Assembly (NCBI GenBank): GCA_019057865.1
Contig: JAHLWP010000018.1
Coordinates: 1 to 64,000, forward strand
Direction of reading: 5' to 3'
From: Promethearchaeota archaeon
GTDB lineage: Archaea; Asgardarchaeota; Lokiarchaeia; Sigyniarchaeales; SOKP01
Length of the DNA stretch: 64,000 nt
Positions within the stretch are counted from its first letter, which is position 1, and each line of letters starts with the position of its first letter. A program made the position numbers and the translations under genes. Under the pieces are notes generated by a model. It did not search any database. It was not told the DNA's origin and saw only the letters and a list, made by a program, of their open reading frames with translations. Of the stretch, positions 39,229 through 64,000 are shown piece after piece.

Positions 39229-39234
39229 ATTAAA

Positions 39235-41678: not shown

Positions 41679-41690
41679 CGGGGAAAAAGA

Positions 41691-44702: not shown

Positions 44703-44706
44703 AAAG

Positions 44707-45159: not shown

Positions 45160-45164
45160 TGATT

Positions 45165-46184: not shown

Positions 46185-46198
46185 AAAGGTGATAAAGA

Positions 46199-47260
46199 AT
46201 AAACCAAAAATTATTAATGAAAAATGAAATAGGGAAGCTTTATATTGAATTGGGGGAAGAATATAGTTTCTATGCTCCAATAAAGGAAAAGGGAAATTTA
46301 GTGTTTAAAAAAATCTTAAATCCTGATGATATTATATTAGATTACTTTAATTCAAAAGTTCCACCAAAAGAAATCTTGTTTCCAAAAACGGAAGTATTAT
46401 TCGAATATAAAACTGATGGAAAAGAGGTAACGGAGATTATTGAAAGAAAAGATTTAGACAAGAAGAACATCATTTTTGGAATTAGACCATGTGATGCTCA
46501 TGCATTTGTGCTTATGGAAAACTTTTTTGCATTGGGGGATTATCAAGATGAGATCTTTTTGAAGAAAAGAGAAAATTCTATCATAATTGGAGTTGGTTGT
46601 AATAATCCGAAGAACACCTGTTTTTGCACCTCAGTAGAAGGTCACCCTTTTCAAAAAGATGATATGGATATCTTTTTGGTAGATTTAGGTGAAAAATATT
46701 TAGTTGAGGCAATAAGTGAAAAAGGTAGAGATTTAATGAATAAATTACCATGGCTGAAGAATGCTACTAAAAAGGATATTCAAAAAGCCACAGAATTATC
46801 TAAACAAGCAGAAGAATCCATTGTAACTAAATTAGATTTAAAAGATATTGAAAAAGTTCTTGATCCTAATTTTGATCATCCAATATGGAGAGAAGTCAGT
46901 GAAATTTGTATAGGATGCGGTACATGTTCTTTCTTATGTCCAACATGTACCTGTTTTGATGTTATTGATGATAATGATCAATACAATAATCGAGGTAGAA
47001 GAATTAGAATTTGGGATACTTGCCAATTCTGTCTATATTCACTTCATACAAGTGGTCATAATCCTCGAGATAGCTGTATTGAACGCTGTAGAAATCGAAT
47101 TTTACATAAATTTTGCTATTATCCTGAGAATTATAACACATTAGGTTGTGTTGGATGTGGTCGGTGTATTCAACTGTGCCCTGTTAATAATGATCTTAGA
47201 ACAATTATTGAAAAAATTAAGAAAATTGAACAAAAAAAGGAGGAGAAAATAAGTGCCTAA
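46199..47260 (+). CDS. Fe-S protein, AsrA/FlxB-like; probable ATA start
   Basis: RPCD, CFC, CIGCGTCSFLCPTCTC, CVGCGRCIQLCP; GGTGA-N6-ATA. Confidence 0.8.
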   Translation: MNQKLLMKNEIGKLYIELGEEYSFYAPIKEKGNLVFKKILNPDDIILDYFNSKVPPKEILFPKTEVLFEYKTDGKEVTEIIERKDLDKKNIIFGIRPCDAHAFVLMENFFALGDYQDEIFLKKRENSIIIGVGCNNPKNTCFCTSVEGHPFQKDDMDIFLVDLGEKYLVEAISEKGRDLMNKLPWLKNATKKDIQKATELSKQAEESIVTKLDLKDIEKVLDPNFDHPIWREVSEICIGCGTCSFLCPTCTCFDVIDDNDQYNNRGRRIRIWDTCQFCLYSLHTSGHNPRDSCIERCRNRILHKFCYYPENYNTLGCVGCGRCIQLCPVNNDLRTIIEKIKKIEQKKEEKISA

Positions 47261-48092
47261 TCCGTATATCCCCTTGCTTACCGAAGTTAAAAATATTGTT
47301 TCGGAAAATGAAGTAAATGACATAAAAACTCTTGAATTGATATTTAAGAAAGAAGAAGATTTAAAAAGTTTTAAATACATTCCAGGACAATTTGCTGAAA
47401 TAAGCTTAATAGGAAAGGGGGAATGTCCTATTGGTATAGCCTCTTCGCCAACAGAAACAGGCTCAATCATGTTTACAATAAAAAAGATGGGAACTGTAAC
47501 TACAGGATTTCACTATTGTGATATGGGAGATATTGTAGGAGTAAGAGGTCCTTTAGGTAATGGCTGGCCAATTGAAGAAATGGAAGGCAAAAATATCATG
47601 GTCATCGGGGGCGGATTTGCATTTTCAACTTTGCGATCTCTAGTCGTGTATTTGCTAGATGAAAAATATAGAAACAATTATAAAGATATTACTGTGATTT
47701 ATGGCAATCGTGATTCTGGTGAAGTATTATATAGAGATATCCTTGAAGAATGGGAACAAAGAGAAGATATTAAAGTAGTTCTAACAATTGATCGCGAAGA
47801 GGAGGGATGGACCCGCGAAGTTGGATTTGTTGCGGCAATAGTTAAGAAGGTTGCTCCATCTCCTGATAACGCTATGGCGGTAGTCTGTGGGCCGCCCATA
47901 ATGATTAGGACTGCCGTGGCTGAATTGGTAAATCTAGGTTGGAAGGACGAGCAAATTTTAAATTCATTAGAGATGAGAATGAAGTGCGGAATTGGCAAAT
48001 GTGGAAGATGTAATATCGGTAATAAATTCGTCTGTATTGATGGACCAGTGTTCTCTCTGGCAGAGCTTAAAAAAATGCCAAATGAATATTAA
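47253..48092 (+). CDS. FAD/NAD-binding oxidoreductase, AsrB/FlxA-like
   Basis: PGQF, GPLGNG, VCGPP, MKCGIGKCGRC. Confidence 0.88.
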   Translation: MPNPYIPLLTEVKNIVSENEVNDIKTLELIFKKEEDLKSFKYIPGQFAEISLIGKGECPIGIASSPTETGSIMFTIKKMGTVTTGFHYCDMGDIVGVRGPLGNGWPIEEMEGKNIMVIGGGFAFSTLRSLVVYLLDEKYRNNYKDITVIYGNRDSGEVLYRDILEEWEQREDIKVVLTIDREEEGWTREVGFVAAIVKKVAPSPDNAMAVVCGPPIMIRTAVAELVNLGWKDEQILNSLEMRMKCGIGKCGRCNIGNKFVCIDGPVFSLAELKKMPNEY

Positions 48093-48134
48093 ACTAATTG
48101 ATTAAAGAGGAAAAAGAAAAGAGGTTAAAAAAAA

Positions 48135-49244
48135 ATGGTTGAAGAAGTTCTACCTAAATCTTTTGAAGATTTAATAAAAGATGTCCATGAACCAGGTATT
48201 TGTGGAGAATGTGGGGGATGTGTTAGCTTTTGCTCGGCTCATGAGATAAAAGCAATTGAGATGTCCGAAACAGGACCTCCAAGATATTATAATAAAGATA
48301 ATTGCCTAAAATGTGGGATTTGTTATTTAGTATGCCCTCAAACTCACATCTTAGATAATGAATTAAATGATAAGTATCATTATAAAGTATCTATTGGTAA
48401 TTGGACAAAAATTGCATCAAGTCAAGCCGCTTCAGAGGAAATTAGGAGAAATGCAACAGATGGTGGTGTTGTAACTGCGATTTTAATGTATTTATTAGAT
48501 AAGAACTTAATAAACGGAGCTATTGTCTCAAAAAGAGAAGGTCCATTTAATAGAGTTCCTTTCTTCGCTACAACGAAAGAGGAATTAATAGAAGCTGCAG
48601 GATCTCACTATGAAATCTCACAGGGAGTTGTAAGCTTAGAGAAATATAATTCATTTGTACCCTCGATCACAAAACTAAAAACAGTTGTGAGTTCTGATGC
48701 AATGAGCATTGCTGTTGTTGGTACACCATGTCAGATAAATTCTATTAGAAAGATGCAAGAATTAAGCATTTTACCTGCTCATATAGTAAAATATACATTT
48801 GGCTTATTTTGTAATTTAAATTTCTCATTTAACGCTGAAGCTCGTAAAAAATTAGAAAAGCGGTTTGATTTTTCTTTTGATGATGTAGAAAAATTAAATA
48901 TTAAGGAAAATTTGATCGTGCAGCTTAATGACGGTAAAACAAAAGATATTGATTTTAAGGATGTTCACGAATTTGCAAGACCTGCATGTTTTGCATGCCG
49001 GGACTTTTCTAATGTATACGCAGATATATCATTTGGAGGTTTAGGATCTAATGATGGATACACAACCGCGATAATTAGGACAAAAACAGGTGAAGAAATA
49101 TATAATAATGCTCTTAGAGAAGGATATATACAAGAACCTCCTGATCTAAATACTTCTGTTAAAAAATCAGAGATGCTTGCTAAAGTTATTAGTTTCGGAA
49201 AAAGAAAGTTCCAAAGGTATAAAGAAGCTTTAAAAGAAAGGTAA
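48135..49244 (+). CDS. frhB: F420 hydrogenase/dehydrogenase beta subunit family protein with N-terminal ferredoxin
   Basis: CGECGGC, TDGGVVTA, VGTPCQ, GLFC, CFAC, ADISFG. Confidence 0.85.
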   Translation: MVEEVLPKSFEDLIKDVHEPGICGECGGCVSFCSAHEIKAIEMSETGPPRYYNKDNCLKCGICYLVCPQTHILDNELNDKYHYKVSIGNWTKIASSQAASEEIRRNATDGGVVTAILMYLLDKNLINGAIVSKREGPFNRVPFFATTKEELIEAAGSHYEISQGVVSLEKYNSFVPSITKLKTVVSSDAMSIAVVGTPCQINSIRKMQELSILPAHIVKYTFGLFCNLNFSFNAEARKKLEKRFDFSFDDVEKLNIKENLIVQLNDGKTKDIDFKDVHEFARPACFACRDFSNVYADISFGGLGSNDGYTTAIIRTKTGEEIYNNALREGYIQEPPDLNTSVKKSEMLAKVISFGKRKFQRYKEALKER

Positions 49245-49673
49245 TAATCTAATTTTTTTTTTATTTAGATGATTGTTTCTATAAAAATTCGTATTCTAAA
49301 TTGAGATTAAGGAAATAAAATTGATAGGTTTTGTTCAAAAGGCAACTAATTTCAGATAAGATCGATTTTTTTTATACAATTTTGTAACCTTATAATTATT
49401 CTGATATATTAAATCTTAGATTTTTTATGTTATCTGTCGGATATATTACAAATTTCATTATCACAATTTTGTTTTAGATAAAATTTGTACATTATTGTCT
49501 ATCGGAAAGGATGATTTTTTCATAATTTTTTTTTATTTTCGATAATATAATTTTAATTTATGGTCGCTTTTGAGCATTTTGTTCCTTTGTGATCGCCTTT
49601 TTCATACAAGTTTCTCGGATGCAGCATTTTTTGGATTAAAAACGTTCGATTCTGAAAATTGAATAGTGTATTT

Positions 49674-49703
49674 ATGATCGAGATCGATCATTTCATTTAA
49701 ATA
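49674..49703. promoter_or_regulatory. perfect palindrome ATGATCGA-GA-TCGATCAT just upstream of a TATA-like TTTAAATA
   Basis: Read directly; about 110-135 nt upstream of the second Hdr cluster. Confidence 0.45.
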
Positions 49704-49808
49704 GGTAATTTTCTTATAAAATTACAGTATAAAAAAAAAAAAAATTACATTAGAATTTATTTTTGAGGATTATTTTTAGCGATAATGAAAGTTTTAAGGT
49801 GATATATT

Positions 49809-51065
49809 ATATCAGGAAATGAAATCGAAAAGTTAATCAAGAGTTCTGATTTAGATAGATCCTTTATTAAATCTCTATCCAAAATTGAGGGAGCAAAAAG
49901 TATATTAGCTTGTTTTCAATGTGGAATGTGCTCATCAAGCTGTCCTATTGAAGAGCAATTTCCTTTAAGTCCAGATGATTTAACTAAAATAGCTGCAATT
50001 GGTGCGAAAAACAAGATTTTAAGAGAAAATGTCCTTAGATATTGCTTAACTTGCCGAACTTGTCAAGAATATTGCCCACAAGGTGTTGATTTTATTGAAT
50101 TCATTAAAGCAGCTAGAAGGTTATTAGTAGACAAGGGTATGAAATATGAGGAGACTCATGATGGGATATTAACTCTTCTAAATGAAATACAAGCAAAACA
50201 ATCATCAGGCTTAATATTACCCTCTGATTTAATACCAGAGGGATCTCAAATATCTAGAAAGGGTAAGATAGCATATTTTATTGGATGCTTACCAATTCTG
50301 GATGTTGTTTTTAATAATTTAGACTTAAATTTGCAAGGAATTGCGCAAAATGGAATAAAGATCATGAATGAGGTACTCGAAAAGCCACCAATAATTCTTG
50401 GAAATATGAAATGTTGTGGACATGATGCCCTTTGGAAGGGACATTTTGAGACTTTTAAAAAATTGGCAGAATATAATGTGAACGAAATCAATAAGTTAGG
50501 TATTGAAACTATCATTACAACATGTGCAGAATGTTATAGAACGTTAAAATTAGATTATCCGAAATATATTGAAAATGCCAATTTTAAGGTCATTCACCTT
50601 ACAGAATTGATTGCTGATGAAGTTGAAAGTGGTCAATTTGAATTTTTAGACTCTCCTAATCGGGCAGTTACATATCATGATCCTTGCAGATTAGGAAGGC
50701 ACATGAAAGTTTATTCACCTCCTAGAAAAATCCTTAATTCAATGGAAGAACACGGGATCATATTTAATGAAATGCCAAGATCCAAGGAAAATTCTGTTTG
50801 CTGTGGAGTAAGTTGCTTTATAAATTGTAATGATCTATCAAAGGCTTTACAGCTCGATAGAATAAAAGAAGCAAAAAAGGTTGCAGATTTATTAGTAACC
50901 TCTTGTCCAAAATGCCAAATTCATTATAATTGTATGCTTCAAGAGAAAAAAGAAAAAATTTCTGATGAAATAAAGTTAGAAATTACAGATATAACAAATT
51001 TAATAGCTAATATGATGGGTTTTTCAGAAGAGAAAAAAGATGAAGTATTATTAGCCTCCCCTTAA
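49809..51065 (+). CDS. HdrD/GlpC-like Fe-S + CCG-domain oxidoreductase; probable ATA start
   Basis: CFQCGMCSSSCP begins upstream of the first ATG; CLTCRTCQEYCP, CCG twice, YHDPC. Confidence 0.85.
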   Translation: MSGNEIEKLIKSSDLDRSFIKSLSKIEGAKSILACFQCGMCSSSCPIEEQFPLSPDDLTKIAAIGAKNKILRENVLRYCLTCRTCQEYCPQGVDFIEFIKAARRLLVDKGMKYEETHDGILTLLNEIQAKQSSGLILPSDLIPEGSQISRKGKIAYFIGCLPILDVVFNNLDLNLQGIAQNGIKIMNEVLEKPPIILGNMKCCGHDALWKGHFETFKKLAEYNVNEINKLGIETIITTCAECYRTLKLDYPKYIENANFKVIHLTELIADEVESGQFEFLDSPNRAVTYHDPCRLGRHMKVYSPPRKILNSMEEHGIIFNEMPRSKENSVCCGVSCFINCNDLSKALQLDRIKEAKKVADLLVTSCPKCQIHYNCMLQEKKEKISDEIKLEITDITNLIANMMGFSEEKKDEVLLASP

Positions 51066-51089
51066 AGTACTTAAGAAGGTTGTAATTAA

Positions 51090-52820
51090 ATGTCTAATAA
51101 AGAAGAAAATAAAGAAGAATCTGTAAGGATTGGAACTTTTATTTGTCTATGTGGCTCAAAAATAGGAAGTGTCATAGATTGTAAATTACTCGCGGATTTT
51201 GCGAAGACATTTCCTGATGTAATATATTCTGAAGATAATTTATTTGCTTGCTCAGAATCAGGGTTAGCTAGTATTAAAAACGCAATTGAAAAATATAATT
51301 TAGAGAGAGTTGTAATAGCAGCCTGTACTCCAAGCACACATGAAAGTCTTTTTCAGAATACAATCCGAGAATCAGGAATAAATCCATATTTATTTGCATT
51401 AGTAAATATTCGTGACCAATGTGCTTGGGCGCATATGTCTGAACCTGAAAAAGCGATGGAAAAAGCAAAAGAGTTAATCGCATTAAACGTTTCAAGAGTT
51501 AAGCTTCTGGAACCTATCTATGAAACAACTGTAGATATCTGCCATTCTGCGTTAGTAATAGGTGGGGGAATAGCCGGACTAACAGCGGCACTTAGTTTAG
51601 GTAACCAGGGATTTAACTCATGTATTATTGAAAGAGAAAAAGAACTTGGGGGATTAGTTAGAAAGATTCACTATATTTTAGGAACTGGAGATCCTCAAGA
51701 ATATCTTAAAAGTCTAATTGAACAGGTTAAAAATCATAAAAGGATTAAAATTTTTACAAATGTTAAGATAGAAGAAATAAATGGATTCATCGGAAATTTC
51801 TCAACATTAATAAAATATAATGGTCGAAAAAAAGAACTTGAGTCTGGAGTAATTATAGTTGCAACCGGAGGAAGAGAGTACAAGCCGAGAGAATTTTTAT
51901 ATGGTACGGATGAAAGAATCATAACACAGTTGGAATTAGAACAAAAAATTGTAGCCGATCAAGTAAAAGGACAAACAATAGCAATGATACAGTGTGTCGG
52001 ATCTAGAAATGAAGAAAGACCAAATTGTAGCAGAATTTGTTGTGTAGAAGCAATTAAAAATGCTTTAAAATTAAAAGAAAAAAACCCTAGACTAAATGTT
52101 TGCATTTTAAATAGAGATATTCATACCTATGGTTTTAAAGAAGATTATTATAACGAAGCAAGAGAAAAAGGAGTAATTTTTATTCAATTTGATGAAAATT
52201 TTGAACCAATAGTTAATATCAAAACTAATAAATTGACGATTACTGTAAAAGATGTGTTATTAAATGAGCGTGTAACCCTTAAAACAGATCTTATTGCTTT
52301 AAGCTCTGCTTTTCTTCCCTCAGAAAATATGGAGCTTTCTAAAATGTTAAAAGTACCACTTGATAAAAACGGATTTTTCTTAGAAGCTCATGTTAAACTA
52401 CGTCCACTTGATTTCGCAACTAGCGGAATATTCTTATGTGGCGCAGCACAATGGCCAAAATTCATTGATGAAACAATTTCACAAGCATTAGGAGCTGCCT
52501 CTAGAGCGGGCACTATTTTATCAAAAGAAAAAATAAATATTGTCGGCTCTGTTGCAGAAATCGATGAGGATATGTGCATTGGTTGCGGTAATTGTAGGGA
52601 TTTATGCGCCTATAATGCAATAGAAATTGGTGAAAGGCAATCAGAGTATAAAGCAGAAGATATAATACAAGAACCTATAGTAGAGTTAACTTGGTATAAA
52701 TCTAAGGTTCTTCAAGCTTTTTGTAAAGGCTGTGGAGCGTGTATTGACGTATGTCCTGTTGGAGCCTTGTCTTTAAAGCATTTTACTTTTCAACAAATTT
52801 CAAATAATTTTACTAAATAA
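51090..52820 (+). CDS. hdrA: HdrA-type flavoprotein (C-terminal-half type)
   Basis: CLCG, ACTP, GGGIAG, QCVGSR, EAHVKLRP. Confidence 0.88.
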   Translation: MSNKEENKEESVRIGTFICLCGSKIGSVIDCKLLADFAKTFPDVIYSEDNLFACSESGLASIKNAIEKYNLERVVIAACTPSTHESLFQNTIRESGINPYLFALVNIRDQCAWAHMSEPEKAMEKAKELIALNVSRVKLLEPIYETTVDICHSALVIGGGIAGLTAALSLGNQGFNSCIIEREKELGGLVRKIHYILGTGDPQEYLKSLIEQVKNHKRIKIFTNVKIEEINGFIGNFSTLIKYNGRKKELESGVIIVATGGREYKPREFLYGTDERIITQLELEQKIVADQVKGQTIAMIQCVGSRNEERPNCSRICCVEAIKNALKLKEKNPRLNVCILNRDIHTYGFKEDYYNEAREKGVIFIQFDENFEPIVNIKTNKLTITVKDVLLNERVTLKTDLIALSSAFLPSENMELSKMLKVPLDKNGFFLEAHVKLRPLDFATSGIFLCGAAQWPKFIDETISQALGAASRAGTILSKEKINIVGSVAEIDEDMCIGCGNCRDLCAYNAIEIGERQSEYKAEDIIQEPIVELTWYKSKVLQAFCKGCGACIDVCPVGALSLKHFTFQQISNNFTK

Positions 52821-52841
52821 AAAAAAGAGGATAAGCTTAAA

Positions 52842-54527
52842 ATGTTAGAAGAAGGAAAGAATGAAAAAGAGATTAGAGTAGGAGTATTTGTTTGTCATTG
52901 TGGTTCTAATATCGGCGGAGTGATTGATTGTAAGAAACTCGCTAAATATGCGAAGAAATTACCTAATGTGGTTTATACTGAAGATAATCTTTACACATGC
53001 TCTGAAAATGGATTAGCCAGCATTAAGAAGGCAATAAAAGAGTATAATTTAAATCGGATAGTTGTAGCATCATGTACTCCAAGAACTCATGAACCTTTGT
53101 TTCGCGAATGTATCTCAGAAGCAGGATTAAATCCCTACCTTTTCAATTTTGTCAATATTAGAGAACAATGTTCATGGGTTCATAGGCAATATCCTAATGA
53201 AGCCTATGAGAAGGCAAAAGATCTAATTAGCATGGGAGTGGCTAAAGCCACAAAATTAGAACCTTTGGAAATGATTACAATAAAAATTAATCCTAATGCT
53301 TTAGTAATTGGTGGTGGAATTTGCGGAATGAGTGCTGCACTTAATTTAAGTAGACAGGGATTTAAAACTTATCTTATTGAAAAGGAGAATGAATTAGGTG
53401 GAAGGTTAAATACACTTTATAAACTATTTCCACATGACACCGAGGCTTTAGAGCTAATAAAGGATATTAAAAATAAAGTTCAAAAAGCTAGGAATTTAGA
53501 AGTTTATACAACAACAAGAATAAAAAATATTGATGGATTTGTGGGGAATTACGATATAGAAATTGTACAGAATGGTAAAATTATCAATTTAACAGTAGGA
53601 GCGATAATCGTTGCTGTAGGTTCTTCGACACTTACACCTGAAGGCATGTTTGGATATGATGGCAAAATAAGAATAACTCAGTACGAATTGGAAGCAAAAC
53701 TAAGAAGAAATGAAATAGATGCAAATAATGTTATAATGATACAATGCGTGGGATCTCGGAATGATGAGAGACCTTATTGTTCAAGCATTTGCTGCATGAC
53801 AGCTATAAAGAATGCGCTAATTATCAAAGAAAGAAATCCAATTTCAAATATTACGATATTATTTAGAGATTTATACTCTCCCGGGACTAATTATGAAAAA
53901 TATTATAGAAACGCAAGAGAAAAAGGAATACTCTTTATAAAATACAAACCTGATAAATTGCCTTCTGTAGAAGAAAATCAAATAAAGGTATTTAATGAAT
54001 ACATTGGAGATCATATAATAATTCCTTATGATTTATTGGTATTATCAACTCCATTAGTTGCCAATGAAGATAATAAGGAACTTGCGCAAAAATTAAAAGT
54101 ACCATTGGAAGCCAACAATTTCTTCTTAGAAGCCCACGTAAAGTTACGCCCTAATGATTTTGCGACAGATGGAGTATATGTAGGTGGCTCAGCAAAATGG
54201 CCTGTGGACGTCTCAGAAACTATAACTCAAGGTTATGCAGCAGCAGCTAGGGCGAGTACGATTTTGTCTCATGAGACGATTAAAGTAGAGGGTGCTATTG
54301 CTACTGTAGATCCTGAAAAATGCATAGGATGCGGATCCTGCGAAATGATCTGTCCATTTAATGCTATACAAATAGAAAGGATGGAATTGGGGTTAAAAGC
54401 CACCATTTTTTCAGCTGTTTGTAAGGGCTGTGGAGTTTGTGGTGCAAGTTGTCCTTTAAATGCAATTTCTATGAAACATTTTATGGACCTTCAAATATAT
54501 GAACAAATATATGCATTATCAGAATGA
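52842..54527 (+). CDS. hdrA: HdrA-type flavoprotein, close paralog of 39235..40917
   Basis: CHCG, SCTP, QCVGSR; identical DNA tracts shared with the 39235 gene. Confidence 0.9.
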   Translation: MLEEGKNEKEIRVGVFVCHCGSNIGGVIDCKKLAKYAKKLPNVVYTEDNLYTCSENGLASIKKAIKEYNLNRIVVASCTPRTHEPLFRECISEAGLNPYLFNFVNIREQCSWVHRQYPNEAYEKAKDLISMGVAKATKLEPLEMITIKINPNALVIGGGICGMSAALNLSRQGFKTYLIEKENELGGRLNTLYKLFPHDTEALELIKDIKNKVQKARNLEVYTTTRIKNIDGFVGNYDIEIVQNGKIINLTVGAIIVAVGSSTLTPEGMFGYDGKIRITQYELEAKLRRNEIDANNVIMIQCVGSRNDERPYCSSICCMTAIKNALIIKERNPISNITILFRDLYSPGTNYEKYYRNAREKGILFIKYKPDKLPSVEENQIKVFNEYIGDHIIIPYDLLVLSTPLVANEDNKELAQKLKVPLEANNFFLEAHVKLRPNDFATDGVYVGGSAKWPVDVSETITQGYAAAARASTILSHETIKVEGAIATVDPEKCIGCGSCEMICPFNAIQIERMELGLKATIFSAVCKGCGVCGASCPLNAISMKHFMDLQIYEQIYALSE

Positions 54528-54548
54528 TTATTGGAGAAAGGTGTTCAA

Positions 54549-55313
54549 ATGTATAACCCAAAAATTTTAGGATTTTTATGTAATTGGTGCTCATATGCGG
54601 GTGCAGATCTTGCCGGTGTTTCGCGATTCAATTATCCACCAAATTTAAGGATAATTAGAGTAATGTGCAGCGGAAGAATTGATCCAAATTTTATTTTGAC
54701 AGCATTCGAAAAAGGTTTAGACGGAGTATTGGTAGCAGGATGTCACCTTGGAGATTGCCATTATCTTACAGGAAATTATCATACAAAATATAAGATTTTA
54801 ATGATGAAAAAGATACTTGAAAAACTTGGGTTTGAAACAAAGAGATTACGACTTGAATGGGTATCTGCTGCCGAAGGGAAAATATTTGCAGATTTAATAA
54901 CTGAATTTACTGAAGAACTGATAAAACTAGGACCTTTATCTGTTAAATTTGACAAAATTTTGATAAAGAATTTGTTTTTTGCCAAACAAATCTGTTCTGA
55001 CTTTAGACTTAGATGGTTAATTAGTAGAGAAAGGGATTTAGTTGAAAGTGAAAATGCTTATGGTGAAAAAATTCCCGAGGAGAAATTTGAAAAATTATTA
55101 GACCATATAATAGAAACAGAATTGATTAAAATTAAAATTCAAAATCTTATTGAAGAAAAGGGTTTATCTGCAGAAGAGATTTCAAGTAAATTAAAAATTC
55201 CATCAGAAAAAGTTATGGAACATCTTATTACAATGAATGATGACCATAAAATAACATTTAATATCAAAAACAAAATGGCAATATTTGCTAAAGAGGGAGG
55301 AATGGTTAAATGA
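54549..55313 (+). CDS. mvhD: MvhD with C-terminal wHTH extension
   Basis: CNWCSY, MCSGR, GCHLGDCHY; tail LSAEEISSKLKIPSEKVMEHL. Confidence 0.88.
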   Translation: MYNPKILGFLCNWCSYAGADLAGVSRFNYPPNLRIIRVMCSGRIDPNFILTAFEKGLDGVLVAGCHLGDCHYLTGNYHTKYKILMMKKILEKLGFETKRLRLEWVSAAEGKIFADLITEFTEELIKLGPLSVKFDKILIKNLFFAKQICSDFRLRWLISRERDLVESENAYGEKIPEEKFEKLLDHIIETELIKIKIQNLIEEKGLSAEEISSKLKIPSEKVMEHLITMNDDHKITFNIKNKMAIFAKEGGMVK

Positions 55314-58300
55314 GTAAACTTGAATCTAAAATTAAAATAGGAGCAGTATTAGTAGTCGGAGGTGGAATTGCCGGGATACAAACATCATTAGATCTCGCAG
55401 AGTTAGGATTTAAAGTCTTTATAGTAGAGAGTTCTCCCGCAATAGGTGGTATCATGAGCCAATTAGATAAAACATTTCCTACAAATGACTGTGCAATGTG
55501 CATTTTAAGCCCTAAATTAGTAGAGGTGGGTAGACATCAAAACATTCAAATAATTACTCACGCTGAAGTTGAGAATCTAGAGGGTTCGGCTGGAAATTTT
55601 AATGTTATATTAAAAAAGTATCCAAGATATATCAATGAAGATAAATGTACAGGTTGTGGACTTTGTTCAGAGTGGTGCCCGATCGAAACTTCAAATGAAT
55701 ATGATGAGGGATTACGAAAAAGAAAAAGTATTTTTATTAAATATCCACAAGCAATTCCAAAATTACCATCTATAGATAGAACAATTTGTATCGGTTGCCG
55801 GTTATGTGAATATATATGTGAAGCAAAAGCCATTGATTTTACTCAAAAAGAAGAAATGATTGAATTGAAAGTCGGTTCTATAATTGTCGCTCAAGGATCT
55901 ACTCCCTATAATCCGTTACCTCTAAAAATGTATGGATATGGGCGTTTTTCGAACGTGATAGCAAGTACCGAATTTGAACGAATATTGAGTGCATCTGGAC
56001 CTTTCATGGGTCATGTTTTACGACCTTCCGACGGAAAAATACCAGAAAAAATAGTATGGATACAATGTATTGGTTCAAGAGATCGAAGAATAGGTAATAA
56101 TTATTGTTCAGCAGTTTGTTGCATGTACGCAATTAAAGAAGCAATAATTGCAAAGGAGCATGAACCAGAAATTGACTGTTACATTTTTTTTATAGATATA
56201 AGAGCTTATGGAAAAGGATTCGAGGATTATTATCTGAGAGCTCAAGAATTAGGAATCAAATTCTTAAGAGGAAAAATTGCCTTAATTAATGAAGATCCAC
56301 AAACGAAAAGTTTAATTATAGCCCATGAAAATAGTGAAACAGGGGAGGTAATAGAAGAACATTTTGATATGGTTGTTCTCTCTATAGGTTTGCAACCTTC
56401 TAATTCTGGTATTGATTTGAGTAAAAAATTGGGAGTTAATCTTAATAAATATAATTTTATTGACACAAATATATTTTCTCCTTTAGAAACTAATAAGCCC
56501 GGGATTTTTGTATGTGGGACTTGTTCTGGTCCTAAAGATATTCCTGAAACAGTAGCAGAAGCAAGTGGCGTGGCTGGAAAAGTCTCTTCATTTCTTTCTA
56601 CTGAAAGAAATACATTAACATCTATAAAAGAATATCCTCCTGAACTTTCAATTGAAGATCAAGAAGCTAGGATTGGAGTATTTATTTGCCACTGTGGAAT
56701 AAACATCGGTGGAATTGTAAATATCCCTGAAGTAGTTAAATTTGCTAAAACTCTTCCTAACGTTGCTTATGCTGAAGAAAATTTGTATACCTGTTCCCAA
56801 GATACCCAAGATAAAATGAAACAAATAATAGAAGAATATAAATTAAATAGGGTTGTTGTAGCCTCTTGTACTCCTCGGACACACGAATCATTGTTCCACA
56901 ATACCATTAGAGAAGCAGGATTGAATCCTTATTTATTTGAATTAGTAAATATTAGAGAACAGTGTTCCTGGGTTCATATGTCCATCCCTGAAGAAGCTAC
57001 AGAAAAAGCAAAAGACCTAGTAGCAATGAATGTTGCCAAAGCTAAACTTTTAGAACCAATATATGAAACATCTGTAGATATTACGCACTCCGGTCTAGTA
57101 ATAGGCGGTGGAATAGCAGGAATGAATGCTGCATTAGAATTAGCAAATCAAGGTTTTGAAGTTTATTTGATTGAAAAAGAAAAAGAGTTAGGTGGTTTTG
57201 TAAGAAATATACATTATGTTCTAGAAGATGGGGATCCTCAAGAATATCTCGAGCAAATTGTTAATCAAGTATTAAATCATGATAAAATTAAAGTATTCAC
57301 TAGCACAAAGATTAAAGATGTACAGGGATTCGTCGGAAATTTTCTAGTTACAGTGAATTATAATAGTAAGAAAAAAGAACTTGATACTGGAGTAATTATT
57401 GTTGCTACAGGTGGAACAGAATATAAACCAATGGAATACATGTATGGAACTGATGAAAGAATATTAACTCAGCAAGAATTGGAACAAAAGATTGTTTTAA
57501 ATGAAATAGATGCAGAAACAGTTGTAATGATTCAATGCGTTGGTTCGAGAAATGAAGAACGTCCTAATTGTAATAGAATATGTTGTTCTCTTGCATTAAA
57601 AAATGCTTTAAAGTTAAAAGAGAAAAACCCTAAGAGGAATATTTGTATTCTATATAGAGATATTCGAACTTATGGTTTTAAGGAGAATTACTACGGGGAA
57701 GCAAGAGAAAAAGGGATTATTTTTATCCGATATGATGAAAAACTCGAACCCGAGGTTAGCATTAAAGAGAATAAGTTGATTGTCTCTGTAAATGATTCAT
57801 TATTAAATGAACAAATAGTTATTAAGCCTGATCTTATAGTATTGAGTGCTGGCTTTTTACCAACAGAAAATAAAGAATTATCCCAAATGTTAAAAGTTCC
57901 CCTTGAACAGAATGGATTTTTCCTAGAAGCACATGTGAAGCTTCGTCCACTTGATTTTGCTACTGATGGAATTTTCGTATGTGGAACGGCACAATGGCCA
58001 AAATTTATTAATGAGACAATTCCACAAGCAAAAGGAGCAGCGGCGAGAGCTGCTACAATTTTATCTAAAGAAAAAATGAAAATTATAGGTTCAACTGCAG
58101 AAATCGAAGAAAATAAATGTATGGGTTGCGGTGAATGTAGGGATATATGTATTTATGATGCAATTGAGCCAATTGAGACCATAATTAATTTTAAAGGTAT
58201 CCTGGATTCAGAAATTCCATATGTAAGTTTAATCCGATATAAATCTAGAGTCCTTCCGGCTGTATGTAAAGGATGTGGAGCTTGTGAAGGTGTTTGTCCA

Positions 58301-58372
58301 GTTGGGGCTATAAGTTTAAAGCATTTCACAAATCAACAATTAATTGCTATGATTCAATCTTATTTAGGATAA
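55310..58372 (+). CDS. hdrA: large tandem HdrA
   Basis: Two FAD modules, LDKTFPTNDC, CHCG. Confidence 0.92.
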   Translation: MSKLESKIKIGAVLVVGGGIAGIQTSLDLAELGFKVFIVESSPAIGGIMSQLDKTFPTNDCAMCILSPKLVEVGRHQNIQIITHAEVENLEGSAGNFNVILKKYPRYINEDKCTGCGLCSEWCPIETSNEYDEGLRKRKSIFIKYPQAIPKLPSIDRTICIGCRLCEYICEAKAIDFTQKEEMIELKVGSIIVAQGSTPYNPLPLKMYGYGRFSNVIASTEFERILSASGPFMGHVLRPSDGKIPEKIVWIQCIGSRDRRIGNNYCSAVCCMYAIKEAIIAKEHEPEIDCYIFFIDIRAYGKGFEDYYLRAQELGIKFLRGKIALINEDPQTKSLIIAHENSETGEVIEEHFDMVVLSIGLQPSNSGIDLSKKLGVNLNKYNFIDTNIFSPLETNKPGIFVCGTCSGPKDIPETVAEASGVAGKVSSFLSTERNTLTSIKEYPPELSIEDQEARIGVFICHCGINIGGIVNIPEVVKFAKTLPNVAYAEENLYTCSQDTQDKMKQIIEEYKLNRVVVASCTPRTHESLFHNTIREAGLNPYLFELVNIREQCSWVHMSIPEEATEKAKDLVAMNVAKAKLLEPIYETSVDITHSGLVIGGGIAGMNAALELANQGFEVYLIEKEKELGGFVRNIHYVLEDGDPQEYLEQIVNQVLNHDKIKVFTSTKIKDVQGFVGNFLVTVNYNSKKKELDTGVIIVATGGTEYKPMEYMYGTDERILTQQELEQKIVLNEIDAETVVMIQCVGSRNEERPNCNRICCSLALKNALKLKEKNPKRNICILYRDIRTYGFKENYYGEAREKGIIFIRYDEKLEPEVSIKENKLIVSVNDSLLNEQIVIKPDLIVLSAGFLPTENKELSQMLKVPLEQNGFFLEAHVKLRPLDFATDGIFVCGTAQWPKFINETIPQAKGAAARAATILSKEKMKIIGSTAEIEENKCMGCGECRDICIYDAIEPIETIINFKGILDSEIPYVSLIRYKSRVLPAVCKGCGACEGVCPVGAISLKHFTNQQLIAMIQSYLG

Positions 58373-58386
58373 TGAGGTGTATAAAT

Positions 58387-58818
58387 ATGGAAAAAGATAA
58401 AAAAGGGTTTAATCCAAAAATAATTACATTTTTATGTAATTGGTGTGGTTATGCTGGAGCTGATTTAGCAGGAGTAAGTCGTTTTCAATATCCTCCTACC
58501 ATTAGAATAATAAGGGTAATGTGTTCTGGAAGAATCCAACCCTCTTTAATACTTAATGCATTTAATCGTGGAAGTGATGGAGTTTTAGTATGTGGATGCC
58601 ATTTAGGGGATTGCCATTATATTTCGGGAAATGAAAAAGCTGAGGAAGGAATTAAGATAACTCAAAAATTACTTGATTTTTTAAGAATTGAACCAGAAAG
58701 ACTTAGATTGGAATGGGTATCAGCAGCGGAAGGGGCTAAGTTTGCAGATGTAGTAAAAAATTTTACCGAGCATCTTATTTCAATCGGACCAATTAATATA
58801 GAAAGCGAGAGTGTGTAA
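58387..58818 (+). CDS. mvhD: MvhD [2Fe-2S] subunit
   Basis: CNWCGY, MCSGR, GCHLGDCHY; GAGGTG SD before ATG 58387. Confidence 0.9.
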   Translation: MEKDKKGFNPKIITFLCNWCGYAGADLAGVSRFQYPPTIRIIRVMCSGRIQPSLILNAFNRGSDGVLVCGCHLGDCHYISGNEKAEEGIKITQKLLDFLRIEPERLRLEWVSAAEGAKFADVVKNFTEHLISIGPINIESESV

Positions 58819-58823
58819 GAAAT

Positions 58824-61800
58824 ATGGTAGAGAGTAATAATTCTGAAAAACAAGTATTGGTAATAGGGGGTGGTGTAGCTGGGATTTCTGCTGCCCTAGA
58901 CCTAGCAGATCAAGGTCATCTTGTCTATTTAGTTGAAAAAAGCCCCTCAATTGGAGGGAAAATGGCTCAATTGGATAAAACTTTTCCGACTTTGGATTGT
59001 TCAATATGTATTTTAGCACCTAAAATGGTCGAATGTGCTCGTCACCCTCGAATTGAACTTTTAACTTATTCAGAAGTGAAAAGAGTTGACCGAATTCGTA
59101 ATGGATCTACCTTCAAGGTAAGAATTCTACTTAAACCTAGATATATTGATAGTTCAAAATGCACTTCATGTGGAACATGTGCGCAAAAATGCCCCTATAA
59201 AAATTTTCCCTCTGAATTTGAACAAGGGTTAAGTAAAAGAGGTGCTGCGTATATTCCTTTCCTTCAAGCAGTTCCAGCTGTATATCTTATTGATTCAGAA
59301 AATTGTACTTACTTTAAAAATGGTACATGCAAGGTATGTGAAAAATTTTGTCCGGCCCACGCAGTAGATTTTGAACAAAAACCAAAAGAAATAGAAATTG
59401 AAGTCGCTTCCATTATAGTAGCCACTGGTTTTGATCTAATGGATGTTAGTTCCTTAGAGAGGTACGGATATGGAAAATATTCCAATGTAACTGTATCCTT
59501 GGAATATGAAAGAATTATGTGTGCATCAGGTCCAACTAAAGGCGAAATTTTACGCCCTTCCGATAATAAACACCCCCACAAGATAGGATTTATTCTATGT
59601 GTTGGATCGAGAAATGTTAATTTAAAGCCTTATTGTTCTAAAATTTGTTGTATGTATGCTACAAAAGAAGCAATTATGACGATGGAACACCATTCTGATG
59701 CAGAAATTTTGGTTTTTTATAATGATTTACGCACGATTGGAAAGAATCATAATGAATTTATTGATAGAGCTAAATCAGATTATAAGGTTCAATATGTCAG
59801 AGGTTTACCTAATAAGATTTATGAAAATACAGAAACAAAAGATCTTATAATAAGACATAAAGACTTTGACACAGGTGAAATTAAATTTGATACAGTAGAT
59901 ATGGTTGTTTTATTTCCAGCAGTTATACCTAGCAGAGGAGCAGAGGAATTTAATGATATATTAGGGGTCGAAATGGACGAATATGGTTTTATAAAGCCAG
60001 TATCATCAACAAATAATATTGAAACTAATATTCCTGGAATTTATGTATGTGGATGTGTTCATGGTCCAGAAGATATTTCAACCTCTGTTGCTGAGGCTAG
60101 CGGTGCTGCTAGTAAAGCAGCTTCTAGAACTTCAATAACTACTATAGATGAAATAAAAGAAGATATTGTTGAAAGAAAAGTATCTAAAAGCGATCCTCCT
60201 CGAATCGGTGTTTTTATCTGTCATTGTGGTTCTAATATTGCAGGCTTTGTGGATGTTAAAAAGGTAGCGGAAGAAATTAAAACTGTTCCTGATGTAGCTT
60301 ATGTTGAAAGAAATTTATATACTTGTTCGGAAGAATCTCAGAATAGTATAAAGGCGGCAATTGAAAAATATGATTTAAATAGGGTTGTAATTGCTGCGTG
60401 TACTCCTAGAACCCATCTTCCATTATTTCAGGGCACTTGTCATGAAGTAGGTCTTAATCCATATTTAGTCCTATTTGCAAGTATTAGAGAATTAGTGAGT
60501 TGGGTTCACATGTCAGAACCTGAAAAAGCTACACAAAAAGCAAAGGAACAGATTTTAATGTGTATCGCAAAATCTCGGCTTGTAGAACCATTACACGATA
60601 TTGAAGTTAATGTATTACCTGCTTCATTAGTTATTGGAGGGGGAATTGCAGGCATGACTGCAGCATTGGCTATGGCAAAAAAAGGATTTAAAGTATACAT
60701 CGTAGAGCGGAGTGAAAATCTTGGTGGATTCATTCGGAACTTAAATGAAATTAATACTGAGGGAACCTCTTCAGAACAAGTACTAACTCCAATATTGCAA
60801 GCAATAAAGACAAATCCTAATATAGAAGTTTTCATATCCTCAACAATAAAAGCTGTAAATGGTTCAATTGGCAACTTTCTAATAGTTATTGAACAAAACA
60901 GTGAAGAAAAAGAAATTAAAACTGGCACTATTATTGTTGCTGTGGGAGGAAAAGAATTTAAACCAAATGGATATTACCATTATGAAGAATATGAAAATAT
61001 CTTTACAAATTTAGAACTTGAAGGTTTAATTCGAAATGAGCAATTACAAGATGGTGAATCTATTGCTTTTATTCAATGCGTTGGTTCCCGTGAAGAACAA
61101 GGAAGAACTTATTGTTCATTGACTTGTTGTGAAGAATCTATAAAAAATGCTTTAACTGTCAAGAAGCGGTATCCTAATTCTCAGATTTTCATATTTTATC
61201 GAGACATAAGAGTATCTTATAAAGAAGAGATTGAATATAGAAAAGCAAGAGAAAAAGGCATTAATTTTATACAATATAAACCGGAAAATCCCCCAATGTT
61301 GAAAAATAAGGATGACAAATTAATATTAAATGTGTCTGATGCTTTAACAAGAATGAAATTCGAATTATCTTTAGATAAAGTAGTGCTTGCTACTCCTTTA
61401 ATAGCATGGGAAGAAAATAAAAAGCTATCTGAAATGTTAAAAGTCCCCCTTGATAAAAACGGTTTCTTTTTTGAAGCACATCCTAAATTAAGACCTGTTG
61501 ATTTTGCTACGGATGGAATCTTCACATGTGGAACTGCTCAATGTCCTAAAAATATAAAAGAATCTTTAAGTCAAGCTCTGGGCGCGGCATCTAGAGCTTT
61601 AATCCCCTTAATGAATAGTAAAGCATCGGTCGAGGGTGCTACATCAAGTTTACCTGAATTTAATAAAAAATTATGTACAGGCTGTGAAGTCTGTCTAACT
61701 GTATGTCCTTATAATGCCATCTCTAAGAACGAATTAGATGAGATTGAAATAAATCAAGTTCTTTGTAAAGGCTGTGGAGTATGTGGGGCTACGTGTACTA

Positions 61801-61895
61801 ATCAAGCTCTTGTAATAAAACATTTCACAAATGAGCAAATTATTTCTCAAATCAATTCTTGTAAAGAAGAAAAACTGGTTGAACTAAAGTTATAA
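58824..61895 (+). CDS. hdrA: large tandem HdrA
   Basis: Two FAD modules, LDKTFPTLDC, CHCG, EAHPKLRP. Confidence 0.92.
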   Translation: MVESNNSEKQVLVIGGGVAGISAALDLADQGHLVYLVEKSPSIGGKMAQLDKTFPTLDCSICILAPKMVECARHPRIELLTYSEVKRVDRIRNGSTFKVRILLKPRYIDSSKCTSCGTCAQKCPYKNFPSEFEQGLSKRGAAYIPFLQAVPAVYLIDSENCTYFKNGTCKVCEKFCPAHAVDFEQKPKEIEIEVASIIVATGFDLMDVSSLERYGYGKYSNVTVSLEYERIMCASGPTKGEILRPSDNKHPHKIGFILCVGSRNVNLKPYCSKICCMYATKEAIMTMEHHSDAEILVFYNDLRTIGKNHNEFIDRAKSDYKVQYVRGLPNKIYENTETKDLIIRHKDFDTGEIKFDTVDMVVLFPAVIPSRGAEEFNDILGVEMDEYGFIKPVSSTNNIETNIPGIYVCGCVHGPEDISTSVAEASGAASKAASRTSITTIDEIKEDIVERKVSKSDPPRIGVFICHCGSNIAGFVDVKKVAEEIKTVPDVAYVERNLYTCSEESQNSIKAAIEKYDLNRVVIAACTPRTHLPLFQGTCHEVGLNPYLVLFASIRELVSWVHMSEPEKATQKAKEQILMCIAKSRLVEPLHDIEVNVLPASLVIGGGIAGMTAALAMAKKGFKVYIVERSENLGGFIRNLNEINTEGTSSEQVLTPILQAIKTNPNIEVFISSTIKAVNGSIGNFLIVIEQNSEEKEIKTGTIIVAVGGKEFKPNGYYHYEEYENIFTNLELEGLIRNEQLQDGESIAFIQCVGSREEQGRTYCSLTCCEESIKNALTVKKRYPNSQIFIFYRDIRVSYKEEIEYRKAREKGINFIQYKPENPPMLKNKDDKLILNVSDALTRMKFELSLDKVVLATPLIAWEENKKLSEMLKVPLDKNGFFFEAHPKLRPVDFATDGIFTCGTAQCPKNIKESLSQALGAASRALIPLMNSKASVEGATSSLPEFNKKLCTGCEVCLTVCPYNAISKNELDEIEINQVLCKGCGVCGATCTNQALVIKHFTNEQIISQINSCKEEKLVELKL

Positions 61896-62124
61896 GTTCT
61901 GGTAAGAGGAGATTTTACCTATATAAGTAGACATTAAAGGAAGGAAATAAGTAAAATTACTTTTAAAAAATTTTTATATCCTTTTATTTTGTGTTTGTTA
62001 TTTGAAAAAAATCAATAATGAATCTAATTCAATAGATAGAGTCAATAATACCTTCAAATATTCTTTTTCTCCATACTTGTTTTTAAAATAGACATCTAAT
62101 ACACCAGTAATCGTAAAAAAGACT

Positions 62125-62310
62125 CCAAGTCTAATTAATCTTGAAGAATTAGAAATCTCAGTCCATAATATACAAAGATTGCCGTTGTTCATAAAAAATC
62201 TTAAAAACCTTAAAATCTTGAGAGTTTACTCTTCAGAGAATCTGAAGAATAAAGAAAGACCAAAATGGTTAAAGGAGATGCCTAACTTAGTAAAAATTCA
62301 ATTTTATTAA
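62125..62310 (+). pseudogene. orphan 3' fragment of an LRR gene
   Basis: PSLINLEELEISVHNIQRLPLFIKNLKNLKILRVY…PKWLKEMPNLVKIQFY*; no 5' part. Confidence 0.6.
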
Positions 62311-62358
62311 CCATTAACAAGACTGAAATTATTTTAAAAGTTATAATGATACAAGTAT

Positions 62359-62455
62359 AAAAAGAAAAGAAAAATAAAAAACTTGTTTAAAAAAATGGAT
62401 TTTTGAATTGTACTTAGGAGATTGCCCTGTTAGAAACATCGGTGGATTACCTGCG
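62359..62455 (-). repeat. orphan actin 3' end (QVIHRCF*, 62430-62453) with its 3' UTR; copy of 63849-63944
   Basis: Shared blocks aaaagaaaagaaaaataaaaaac and aaaaaaatggatttttga, plus synonymously recoded terminal codons. Confidence 0.85.
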
Positions 62456-62467
62456 TAATCCTCTAAA

Positions 62468-62569
62468 CTTAATACATCAGTAAAGAAATCAGAAATGCTA
62501 GCTAAAATTATAAGCTTTGGGAAAAGAAAATTTGAGAGATACAATAAAGCATTAAAAAAAAGGAAATAG
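62468..62569 (+). pseudogene. orphan 3' end of an frhB-family gene (copy of 49146-49244)
   Basis: LNTSVKKSEMLAKIISFGKRKFERYNKALKKRK* vs resident LNTSVKKSEMLAKVISFGKRKFQRYKEALKER*; 27/32 aa identical. Confidence 0.9.
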
Positions 62570-62794
62570 GTAAAATTATTTATTTTTTTATTTCTTCTTT
62601 TATTTCGTAAGATTCTGCTAGATGTGGTATTAATAATAAACAACAAGCTAAAAATAACTATAAATCTTTAATGCTTCTCGTCTAGCCGATCCCTTCAGGT
62701 AAGTCTGACTCTGATGTGCGAAATTATATCGATTTCATGGCAATGGATTATTACTTCTCCCAATATCCAAGATTAGTAGTTTTCTTTTTTTGGA

Positions 62795-62947
62795 TTATAT
62801 TTTATTTATTTTTAAGAATTGGCTTTTTTTACGATTTCTTTGTTGTTTAATTTTATTAATAGATTTTATTGATTTGAGAAAAAGCATTCGAATTTCGGCT
62901 TTTTTGACATGGTAAAGACGATATTTATCATCAATTTTTTGACTCAT
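62795..62947 (-). CDS. possible 50-aa basic protein
   Basis: MSQKIDDKYRLYHVKKAEIRMLFLKSIKSINKIKQQRNRKKSQFLKINKI*; ORF evidence only. Confidence 0.3.
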   Translation of the reverse strand: MSQKIDDKYRLYHVKKAEIRMLFLKSIKSINKIKQQRNRKKSQFLKINKI

Positions 62948-63023
62948 TTAAGAAAAAATAATCATGAGAAAAAAGAATAAAAAAATAAATGAAAAAATAA
63001 AAAACTTGAAGAGGTTTACCTCT

Positions 63024-63086
63024 TTAGAAACATCGGTGTATTACTTGTGGACCCATTTCTTTGTATTCTCGCCTCGTGACCCACAT
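63024..63086 (-). pseudogene. orphan actin 3' end, or 20-aa ORF MWVTRREYKEMGPQVIHRCF
   Basis: Peptide identical to 63919-63981 with 11 synonymous third-position changes; followed by a hairpin (63009-63024) and a T-rich tract. Confidence 0.88.
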
Positions 63087-63309
63087 ACGATATAATACAA
63101 TCTAATACAATCTGAAATATGAGATAGAATTTATTGTTTTTTGTTGATATCTATTGAATTTTAACATAAATTGAATTAATGAGATAATAATTTTCATTCA
63201 ATTCTATTTTTATTCAAGATTTTAAGAATAAAAAAGGAAAATAAAAAAAATTAAATAAAGAGATAAAAGTAGAATCTAAAAATATATTAATTTATGGTTT
63301 TTTCATTAT

Positions 63310-63918: not shown

Positions 63919-64000
63919 TTAGAAGCATCGGTGAATTACTTGCGGTCCCATCTCCTTATATTCGCGTCTGGTTACCCACATGCGATGGAAAGTTTTAAGT
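63919..64000 (-). CDS. actin homolog (Lokiactin-type), 3' end only; continues beyond the window
   Basis: LKTFHRMWVTRREYKEMGPQVIHRCF* aligns with the eukaryotic actin C-terminus [27 protein letters not shown]. Confidence 0.85.
   Translation of the reverse strand, partial: LKTFHRMWVTRREYKEMGPQVIHRCF

What the first reader, a model, noticed from the sequence alone, without database searches (positions are those of the whole stretch)
49146..62569. Second Hdr cluster is bracketed by two versions of the frhB 3' end, with an actin-tail|frhB-tail fusion junction
Seen: the last 32 codons of frhB (49146-49244) reappear at 62468-62569 with 27/32 identical residues, 16 of them using a different synonymous codon. 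This orphan abuts the orphan actin tail back-to-back at about 62455-62467. Layout: frhB> [Hdr cluster 2] <actin'|'frhB> [cargo] <actin' [cargo] <actin. Inference: a whole frhB-to-actin interval from a diverged relative, including both flanking gene tails, was added in tandem. That fits circle integration or homology-facilitated illegitimate recombination, and makes the 13-kb electron-bifurcation cluster a swappable cassette between two conserved anchor genes.
Basis: partly seen in the sequence, partly recalled or inferred. Interest (0 to 1): 0.8.

Follow-up and report, generated by a model that had tools for sequence, protein, structure and literature searches.

The report
Spliced alleles around Asgard Hdr cassette
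In a Loki-type Asgard archaeon, a 13-kb block of energy-metabolism genes moves between strains in the slot between two conserved genes (frhB-like and actin), and this genome holds a 'full' and an 'empty' version of the slot joined end to end, a known kind of recombination scar for which both parent versions and three other independent joints could be found.

Summary
Observation confirmed exactly (27/32 residues, 16 synonymous codons). The junction is real: an independent short-read assembly is 100% identical across it; no read-level test was possible. Both parents exist in the same species: a 'full' allele (Hdr cluster 2 then intact actin, 99% identical up to 62455) and an 'empty' allele (frhB, spacer, actin; 95% over 62457-63091). 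The orphan frhB tail is the native one (103/104 nt to a sister species). The in-gene 3' end (48858-49244) is foreign and groups with another genus. The same cassette shows four different right-hand joints among conspecific contigs, with 0-5 nt microhomology and no integrase or nuclease. Best reading: one-sided homologous anchoring plus illegitimate joining (HFIR-like), not circle integration. The immediate partner was conspecific, not a diverged relative; which allele was incoming cannot be decided. About 25 genes in this genome carry such displaced tails, and this scan reported the pattern before in other Asgard genomes. Known mechanism, unusually complete natural allele series.

The parts
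48135..48857 (+). frhB/fdhB-like gene, native 5' part
   Evidence: 99% nt to sister species G012 and 98% to L091; tree groups it with G012/L091/L090, support 100; Pfam FrhB_FdhB_N and _C, below the curated frhB cut-off
48858..49244 (+). foreign 3' part of frhB-like gene (tail A), in frame
   Evidence: 74-77% nt to G012/L091, 84-85% to G108/G105 of another genus, tree support 79-87; same border in L250, L252, L255, L262
49809..51065 (+). HdrD-like (HdrC+HdrB-type fusion), first gene of cluster 2; probably starts at ATA 49809, first ATG 49926
   Evidence: Pfam CCG x2 and Fer4; frame open for 420 codons; start codon taken from an earlier scan note, not tested
51090..54527 (+). two HdrA-like genes (576 and 561 aa)
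54549..55313 (+). MvhD/FlpD-like protein with C-terminal extension
55310..58372 (+). double-length HdrA-like gene (1020 aa)
   Evidence: 1011.6 bits on HdrA2 model, cut-off 1100
58387..58818 (+). MvhD/FlpD-like gene
58824..61895 (+). double-length HdrA-like gene (1023 aa), last gene of cluster 2; its stop codon lies inside tail C
61884..61992 (+). third, decayed frhB 3' end with 3' UTR (tail C), scar of an older entry of cluster 2
   Evidence: nhmmer E 2.4e-4 genome-wide, best match native-type tails (71-72% over 112 nt); shared with another species, L254
62040..62310 (+). remnant of a leucine-rich-repeat-type gene
   Evidence: translation; 70% nt to an LRR-like gene in L126; identical in L255-L260
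62359..62455 (-). actin 3' UTR, stop and last 7 codons: cut end of the 'full' allele
   Evidence: continues into an intact actin gene in L260
62455..62457 (.). illegitimate joint between full allele (left) and empty allele (right); one base (62456) matches neither parent
   Evidence: present in L251
62457..62569 (+). displaced native frhB tail (tail B), about 36 codons and stop
   Evidence: 103/104 nt to G012, 98% to L091
62570..63023 (.). native frhB-actin spacer of the empty allele
   Evidence: 62457-63091 is 95.4% identical to L091, where it joins frhB directly to actin
63024..63091 (-). displaced actin tail, 22 codons (separate event anchored in actin)
   Evidence: shared with L252
63310..63651 (-). 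113-aa SRPBCC/START-like cargo gene of the actin-anchored insert
   Evidence: Atlas hits 0.92-0.93, weak Pfam Polyketide_cyc2
63919..64000 (-). 3' end of the live actin gene (381 aa, runs to C31:65064)
   Evidence: Pfam Actin

Best explanation
The frhB-actin interval is a flexible slot with at least two allele classes in this species: 'empty' (frhB, short spacer, actin) and 'full' (frhB with a foreign 3' end, Hdr cluster 2, a decayed frhB tail, an LRR remnant, actin). This chromosome is a recombinant: full allele on the left up to 62455, empty allele on the right from 62457 (shown). It most likely arose when chromosomal DNA from one allele paired with the other by homology on one side only and its free end was joined without homology on the other side, so that both gene tails survive back to back (inferred; homology-facilitated illegitimate recombination or one-sided break repair). 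I favour, about 60:40, the full allele as the incoming DNA, anchored in frhB or upstream, with loss of 277 nt of native frhB; the alternative is a short empty-allele piece anchored in actin. The cluster itself reached this lineage earlier from other genera of the family by the same kind of event at frhB, which left tail C (inferred). The scars have no function; the cargo adds HdrA/MvhD/HdrD-like flavo-iron-sulfur proteins beside an Hdr-Flx-like operon, probably for electron bifurcation (inferred from family only).
For: Both parents found: L260 99.1% to 58132-62455 then intact actin; L091 95.4% to 62457-63091, contiguous frhB-actin. Mosaic frhB with discordant trees. Four different joints of the same cassette in conspecific contigs, variable on both sides: 62455|49135 (this genome, L251), 62165|48078 (L252, L253, L263; whole second frhB), 61966|48837 (L261, L262), 62429|unknown gene (L255-L259); microhomology 0-1, 3 (CCA) and about 5 nt (TTTAA). 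The L261/L262 joint lies 21 nt from the homology border at 48858, as expected if the full allele is the incoming DNA. Cluster 2 follows frhB in G090 and G091 and lies, in the same 7-gene order at 77-84% nt, ahead of actin in G145. No integrase, transposase or nuclease ORF in the cassette or its two intergenic stretches or in nine cargo ORFs of the alleles. Genome-wide polarity: 25 genes with an orphan tail downstream on the same strand against 5 upstream and 1 opposite; 11 orphan heads upstream against 4 downstream.
Against: This joint has almost no microhomology, whereas laboratory HFIR involves 3-10 bp stretches (PMC6382021). Laboratory HFIR is 100-1000 times rarer than homologous transformation, yet joined alleles outnumber the clean one here (4 types to 1), which needs selection or an unusual repair bias. 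No ComEC in 21 genomes searched, so the DNA entry route is unknown; DprA is present in this genome but patchy. Direction is not decidable: two of four left-side ends lie within 26 nt of the actin stop, as in actin-anchored inserts. The clean full allele rests on one 4.9-kb contig. The G012 comparison at other loci showed the native-tail-displaced pattern clearly in only 3-4 of 12 cases; the rest were shared or ambiguous.
Confidence: 0.72

Rival explanations
1. Nuclease-initiated homing, as with yeast WHO elements at FBA1: an endonuclease (now lost or acting in trans) cuts frhB or actin, and repair from a resistant allele replaces the 3' end and displaces the old one.
For: Same anatomy as WHO/FBA1 (99% upstream, about 85% downstream, 3' fragments; PMC7282813). 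Actin 3' 446 nt differ by 47-96 nt among conspecific alleles while the 5' 560 nt differ by 0-6. Earlier scan notes report nuclease cassettes at other genes of this genome (not re-tested). Orphan starts pair loosely: 49135 and about 49142 (L099); 49180 (tail C) and a similar codon in a paralog.
Against: No nuclease gene or remnant found in the cassette or in cargo ORFs tested. Native-side joints range over 48078, 48837, 49135 and beyond the stop, so no single cut site. WHO homing uses a second homology and gives clean right ends; here the right ends are non-homologous.
Confidence: 0.12
2. Two-step circle model proposed for rhs C-terminal displacement and by the first reader: an excised circle carrying the frhB 3' end, the cluster and the actin tail integrates by a single crossover.
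For: The L261/L262 allele has a 21-22 nt direct repeat (48837-48857) at both ends of the insert, compatible with a single crossover. The model is published for rhs (PMC2935791).
Against: In this genome native frhB 48858-49134 is absent and the downstream copy is native from its first base; a single crossover loses nothing, so an extra deletion is needed. Four different closing joints would be needed for one cassette.
Confidence: 0.08
3. Assembly chimera of two co-occurring strains.
Against: The joint shares no k-mer with either parent, so graph assemblers would not make it; a second assembly is identical over 3104 nt; sister joints recur across several assemblies.
Confidence: 0.04
4. Local tandem duplication of the frhB-actin interval followed by decay and divergence in place.
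For: Copies are tandem and in the same orientation.
Against: The orphan is 99% identical to relatives' live tail while the in-gene tail groups with another genus; differences are mostly synonymous, which decay does not give.
Confidence: 0.02

Closest known systems
Homology-facilitated illegitimate recombination (HFIR) in Acinetobacter baylyi, Streptococcus pneumoniae, Pseudomonas stutzeri (as summarised in PMC6382021 and PMC5361080; the original papers were not held)
   Same: One homologous anchor, one non-homologous joint, no integrase, variable joint positions, loss of recipient DNA.
   Different: Seen here as natural alleles in an Asgard archaeon with no ComEC found; 13-kb cargo; joints with 0-5 nt microhomology; joined alleles outnumber the clean one.
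C-terminal displacement arrays of rhs genes and Vibrio cholerae T6SS effector-immunity modules (PMC2935791, PMC5361080)
   Same: Incoming DNA supplies a new 3' end and shunts the old one downstream; arrays then move between strains by ordinary homologous recombination.
   Different: Anchors are housekeeping-type genes whose protein barely changes (actin not at all); cargo is metabolic, not toxin-immunity; two convergent anchors are used from both sides.
Flexible genomic islands, replacement and additive types (Alteromonas, PMC5217437); deletion-coupled insertions in Haloquadratum walsbyi (PMC3119063)
   Same: A fixed chromosomal slot with alternative contents exchanged between close relatives using conserved flanks.
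   Different: Replacement islands and deletion-coupled insertions leave no duplicated gene ends; additive islands use site-directed recombination at tRNA ends. This slot shows both clean swaps and one-sided additions.
WHO homing elements at yeast FBA1 (PMC7282813)
   Same: Host gene with conserved 5' and highly polymorphic 3' part, 3' fragments downstream.
   Different: No endonuclease gene found and no single breakpoint.
HdrABC-FlxABCD / HdrA-MvhD modules (own knowledge, family hits)
   Same: Cluster 1 has HdrC, HdrB, HdrA, MvhD, AsrA-like and FAD/NAD-binding subunits; cluster 2 has HdrD-like, four HdrA-like and two MvhD-like genes.
   Different: No cluster 2 protein reaches a curated NCBIfam cut-off, and it has no electron-input subunit of its own.

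Membership tests
HFIR product | One side joined by homologous recombination (mosaic anchor, no scar) | tested here: met
   Left side is continuous with the full allele and right side with the empty allele; frhB and actin are in-frame mosaics
HFIR product | Other side joined without extended homology, at variable positions | tested here: met
   Four joints, variable on both sides
HFIR product | 3-10 bp microhomology at the illegitimate joint | tested here: inconclusive
   0-1 nt plus one unmatched base at this joint; 3 nt and about 5 nt at two others; partner unknown for the fourth
HFIR product | Loss of recipient DNA next to the anchor | tested here: met
   277 nt of native frhB missing if the full allele came in; most of the recipient actin 3' tract if the empty allele came in
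HFIR product | RecA/RadA-dependent, single-strand uptake by natural transformation | not testable with these tools
   No ComEC found in 21 genomes; DprA in this genome; no experiment possible
Integrase-borne island (att site in a gene 3' end) | Integrase gene in or next to the island | tested here: not met
   All cassette ORFs are Hdr/Mvh-like; intergenic stretches hold no such frame
Integrase-borne island (att site in a gene 3' end) | Fixed att core repeated at both ends | tested here: not met
   Joint positions differ among alleles
WHO-like homing element | Endonuclease gene downstream of the replaced 3' end | tested here: not met
WHO-like homing element | Common breakpoint in the host gene | tested here: not met
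   Foreign-tract borders at 48858, about 48330 (L257) and about 49150-49200 (L254); native-side joints 48078-beyond stop
WHO-like homing element | Host gene 5' conserved, 3' hyper-polymorphic within species | tested here: met
Replacement-type flexible genomic island | Same slot, conserved flanks, alternative contents within a species | tested here: met
   L091 empty, L260 full, plus other cargo in L252, L255, L261
Electron-bifurcating Hdr complex | Complete HdrABC with an electron-input partner and shown bifurcation | not testable with these tools
   Family hits only, below curated cut-offs; no input subunit inside cluster 2

The most novel reading that the evidence does not exclude
Loki-type Asgard archaea have an efficient, ComEC-independent route that couples one-sided homologous pairing to near-blunt end joining, so that additive insertion is about as common as clean allele replacement; gene ends such as those of actin and frhB serve as general landing sites, and this is a main way these genomes gain genes, while silently scrambling the actin 3' end among strains.
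Probability: 0.3. Interest if true: 0.7.

Novelty: new member of a known kind. Interest (0 to 1): 0.45.

Why it matters
The mechanism class is known from bacteria and this scan has already noted displaced gene ends in several Asgard genomes, so the locus alone is not surprising. Its value is as a worked case: both parent alleles and four independent joints of one 13-kb energy-metabolism cassette are on record, which makes the frequency and rules of one-sided integration in Asgard archaea measurable from population data. It also shows that Hdr gene content differs between strains of one species and that single-gene trees from frhB or actin DNA of these archaea mix lineages: the actin protein is unchanged while its last 446 nt differ by 10-21% between conspecific strains.

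Tried and rejected
Composition: GC 0.330 vs 0.338 and GC3 0.19-0.23 in both clusters, no signal; tetranucleotide profile not run. A better-matching frhB paralog: none. Exact donor of the foreign frhB tract: best only 84-85% nt. Direction test by diversity: the last cassette gene differs by 1-17 of 3072 nt among most alleles (34-39 for L261), no clearer sweep than the actin 5' part, uninformative. Direction test by leftover L260-type patches in the right-hand actin: none found, uninformative because crossovers would fall in the identical part. Survey of orphan actin tails by a 26-aa query listed mostly full genes. Genome-wide test against G012: 4 of 12 searches found no usable ortholog or only a distant one, others mixed. 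The 150-aa zinc-finger ORF often next to the actin end has no nuclease-family hit. Original HFIR papers not held. Literature searches found no paper on this locus or on such scars in Asgard archaea; most subscription papers are not searched.
Full report
Setting. The window is bases 1-64000 of contig C31 (73,051 nt) of a 4.26-Mb metagenome-assembled genome; near-identical proteins are labelled Promethearchaeota. Cluster 1 (36481-49244) holds HdrC, HdrB, HdrA, MvhD, AsrA-like and FAD/NAD-binding genes and ends in an FrhB/FdhB-like gene; cluster 2 (49809-61895) holds one HdrD-like, four HdrA-like and two MvhD-like genes. None reaches a curated cut-off, so 'electron bifurcation' is an inference from family, and cluster 2 has no electron-input subunit of its own.

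Observation. The duplicated frhB tail is as described: 27/32 residues, 16 synonymous codons, 74/96 nt. The actin tails at 63024-63091 and 62430-62455 are real; the second is only a stop, 7 codons and about 70 nt of UTR. A Logan contig of SRR14803095 is identical to 61335-64438.

Which tail is native. The sister species G012 (about 95% nt) and the conspecific contig L091 have frhB, a short spacer and actin, without cluster 2. Their frhB matches the window at 98-99% up to 48857 and at 74-77% after it, while their tail matches the orphan at 103/104 nt. Trees agree: codons 11-240 group with G012/L091/L090 (100), codons 243-360 with two genomes of another genus (79-87). So the orphan is the native end, the live end is foreign, and 277 nt of native gene (48858-49134) are gone. 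That excludes decay of a local duplicate and, without an extra deletion, single-crossover circle integration.

Synteny and origin. Actin lies 1.3-4 kb behind this frhB in 11 of 11 same-genus genomes with long enough contigs (inverted in 7) and in five genomes of another genus, with changing genes between; it was not found behind frhB in the two genomes closest to the foreign tract. A shorter cluster 2 follows frhB in G090 and G091, and G145 has the same seven genes at 77-84% nt upstream of a convergent actin. Good orthologs of the first cassette gene (62-75% aa) were found in only nine other genomes of 161 searched. GC and GC3 do not separate the clusters.

Allele series. Exact look-ups of close cluster members gave contigs of the same species (cassette 98.6-99.6% identical). 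L260 is identical to the window up to 62455 and runs on into an intact actin gene: the left parent. L091 is the right parent. Three other joints of the same cassette exist: 62165 joined to 57 nt upstream of a complete second frhB (L252, L253, L263; microhomology CCA), 61966 joined to frhB position 48837 (L261, L262; about 5 nt), and 62429 joined inside an unknown gene (L255-L259). Several recur in more than one assembly. This genome's joint has 0-1 nt of microhomology and one unmatched base. L254, another species, carries the cassette at 95% with the same tail C and only the last 50-100 nt of the foreign frhB end, so the unit has also crossed species with different crossover points. The immediate partner at this joint was therefore conspecific; the divergence between the tails comes from older transfers, of which tail C, best matched by native-type tails, is the scar.

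Mechanism. Shown: a full and an empty allele joined at a non-homologous point, with joints variable on both sides and no integrase or nuclease gene in the cassette or in nine cargo ORFs. Inferred: pairing on one side and illegitimate joining on the other, as in HFIR (PMC6382021) and as proposed for displaced T6SS and rhs ends (PMC5361080, PMC2935791). Either allele could have been incoming. For the cassette as incoming DNA: it offers a selectable gain, and the L261/L262 joint sits 21 nt from the homology border. For the empty piece: two of four left ends lie within 26 nt of the actin stop, like actin-anchored inserts such as the 113-aa SRPBCC-like gene. Diversity tests did not decide; I put it at 60:40. 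The entry route is open: no ComEC in 21 genomes, DprA in this one.

Generality. In this genome 25 genes have an orphan tail downstream on the same strand (5 upstream, 1 opposite) and 11 have an orphan head upstream (4 downstream); some are paralog remnants. Against G012 the native-end-displaced pattern was clear in 3-4 of 12 cases. Earlier notes of this scan report the same pattern in this and other Asgard genomes, some with nucleases; these are leads, not support. The WHO/FBA1 parallel (PMC7282813) is anatomical only: two defining features were not met here.

Verdict. Real, and a new instance of a known kind: a flexible slot (compare PMC5217437, PMC3119063) with HFIR-like scars. Interest 0.45 for the complete allele series and the high share of joined alleles; if that share reflects a dedicated pathway (probability 0.3) it would deserve about 0.7.

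Noticed in passing
window 63919-64000 and C31:63919-64470; L252, L255, L260, L261, L263, L091: The last 446 nt of actin differ by 47-96 nt between conspecific alleles (seven allele types) while the first 560 nt differ by 0-6 and the protein is unchanged except two residues in L263.
   Followed up: partly
window 38500-41500: A 3-kb tract inside cluster 1 is only 68-86% identical to G012 while its flanks are 90-100%: another replaced segment, without visible scars.
   Followed up: no
L252:13394-14506 and L263:3940-5052: Some strains carry two complete frhB-like genes, the mosaic one before cluster 2 and the native one after it; they differ at about 30 of the last 128 residues.
   Followed up: partly
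L257:4986-6719: An allele lacks two cassette genes; a 577-aa hybrid hdrA suggests deletion between hdrA paralogs, or a collapsed assembly.
   Followed up: no
L255:13951-14406, L031:14905-15711, also beside actin in G003, G016, L118, L126: A 128-268 aa family with two CxxC pairs recurs next to the actin 3' end, also where actin is inverted; no family hit.
   Followed up: partly
same-genus genomes G031, G016, G003, G024, G029, G005, G001: Actin is inverted in place relative to frhB and the downstream genes.
   Followed up: no
window 49796-49928: The HdrD-like frame is open 420 codons and its first ATG lies inside the first iron-sulfur motif; relatives have longer N-termini, consistent with an ATA start.
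   Followed up: partly
L099:5133-5250 and L045:18571-18610: Orphan frhB tails in unrelated genomes, behind different cargo, starting near codons -33 and -22.
   Followed up: partly
G000 C60:19654-19784 and C60:22896-23001: Reciprocal case: this genome's orphan tail matches G012's live tail (95%) and its live tail matches G012's orphan (95%).
   Followed up: partly
L130:1-1760: A conspecific contig joins frhB position 48319 directly to the spacer (62654), deleting most of frhB.
   Followed up: no
window 48135-48857: The native frhB of this genome and G012 nests among genomes of another GTDB genus rather than with the other same-genus frhB genes: an older transfer of cluster 1 or a loose genus.
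   Followed up: no
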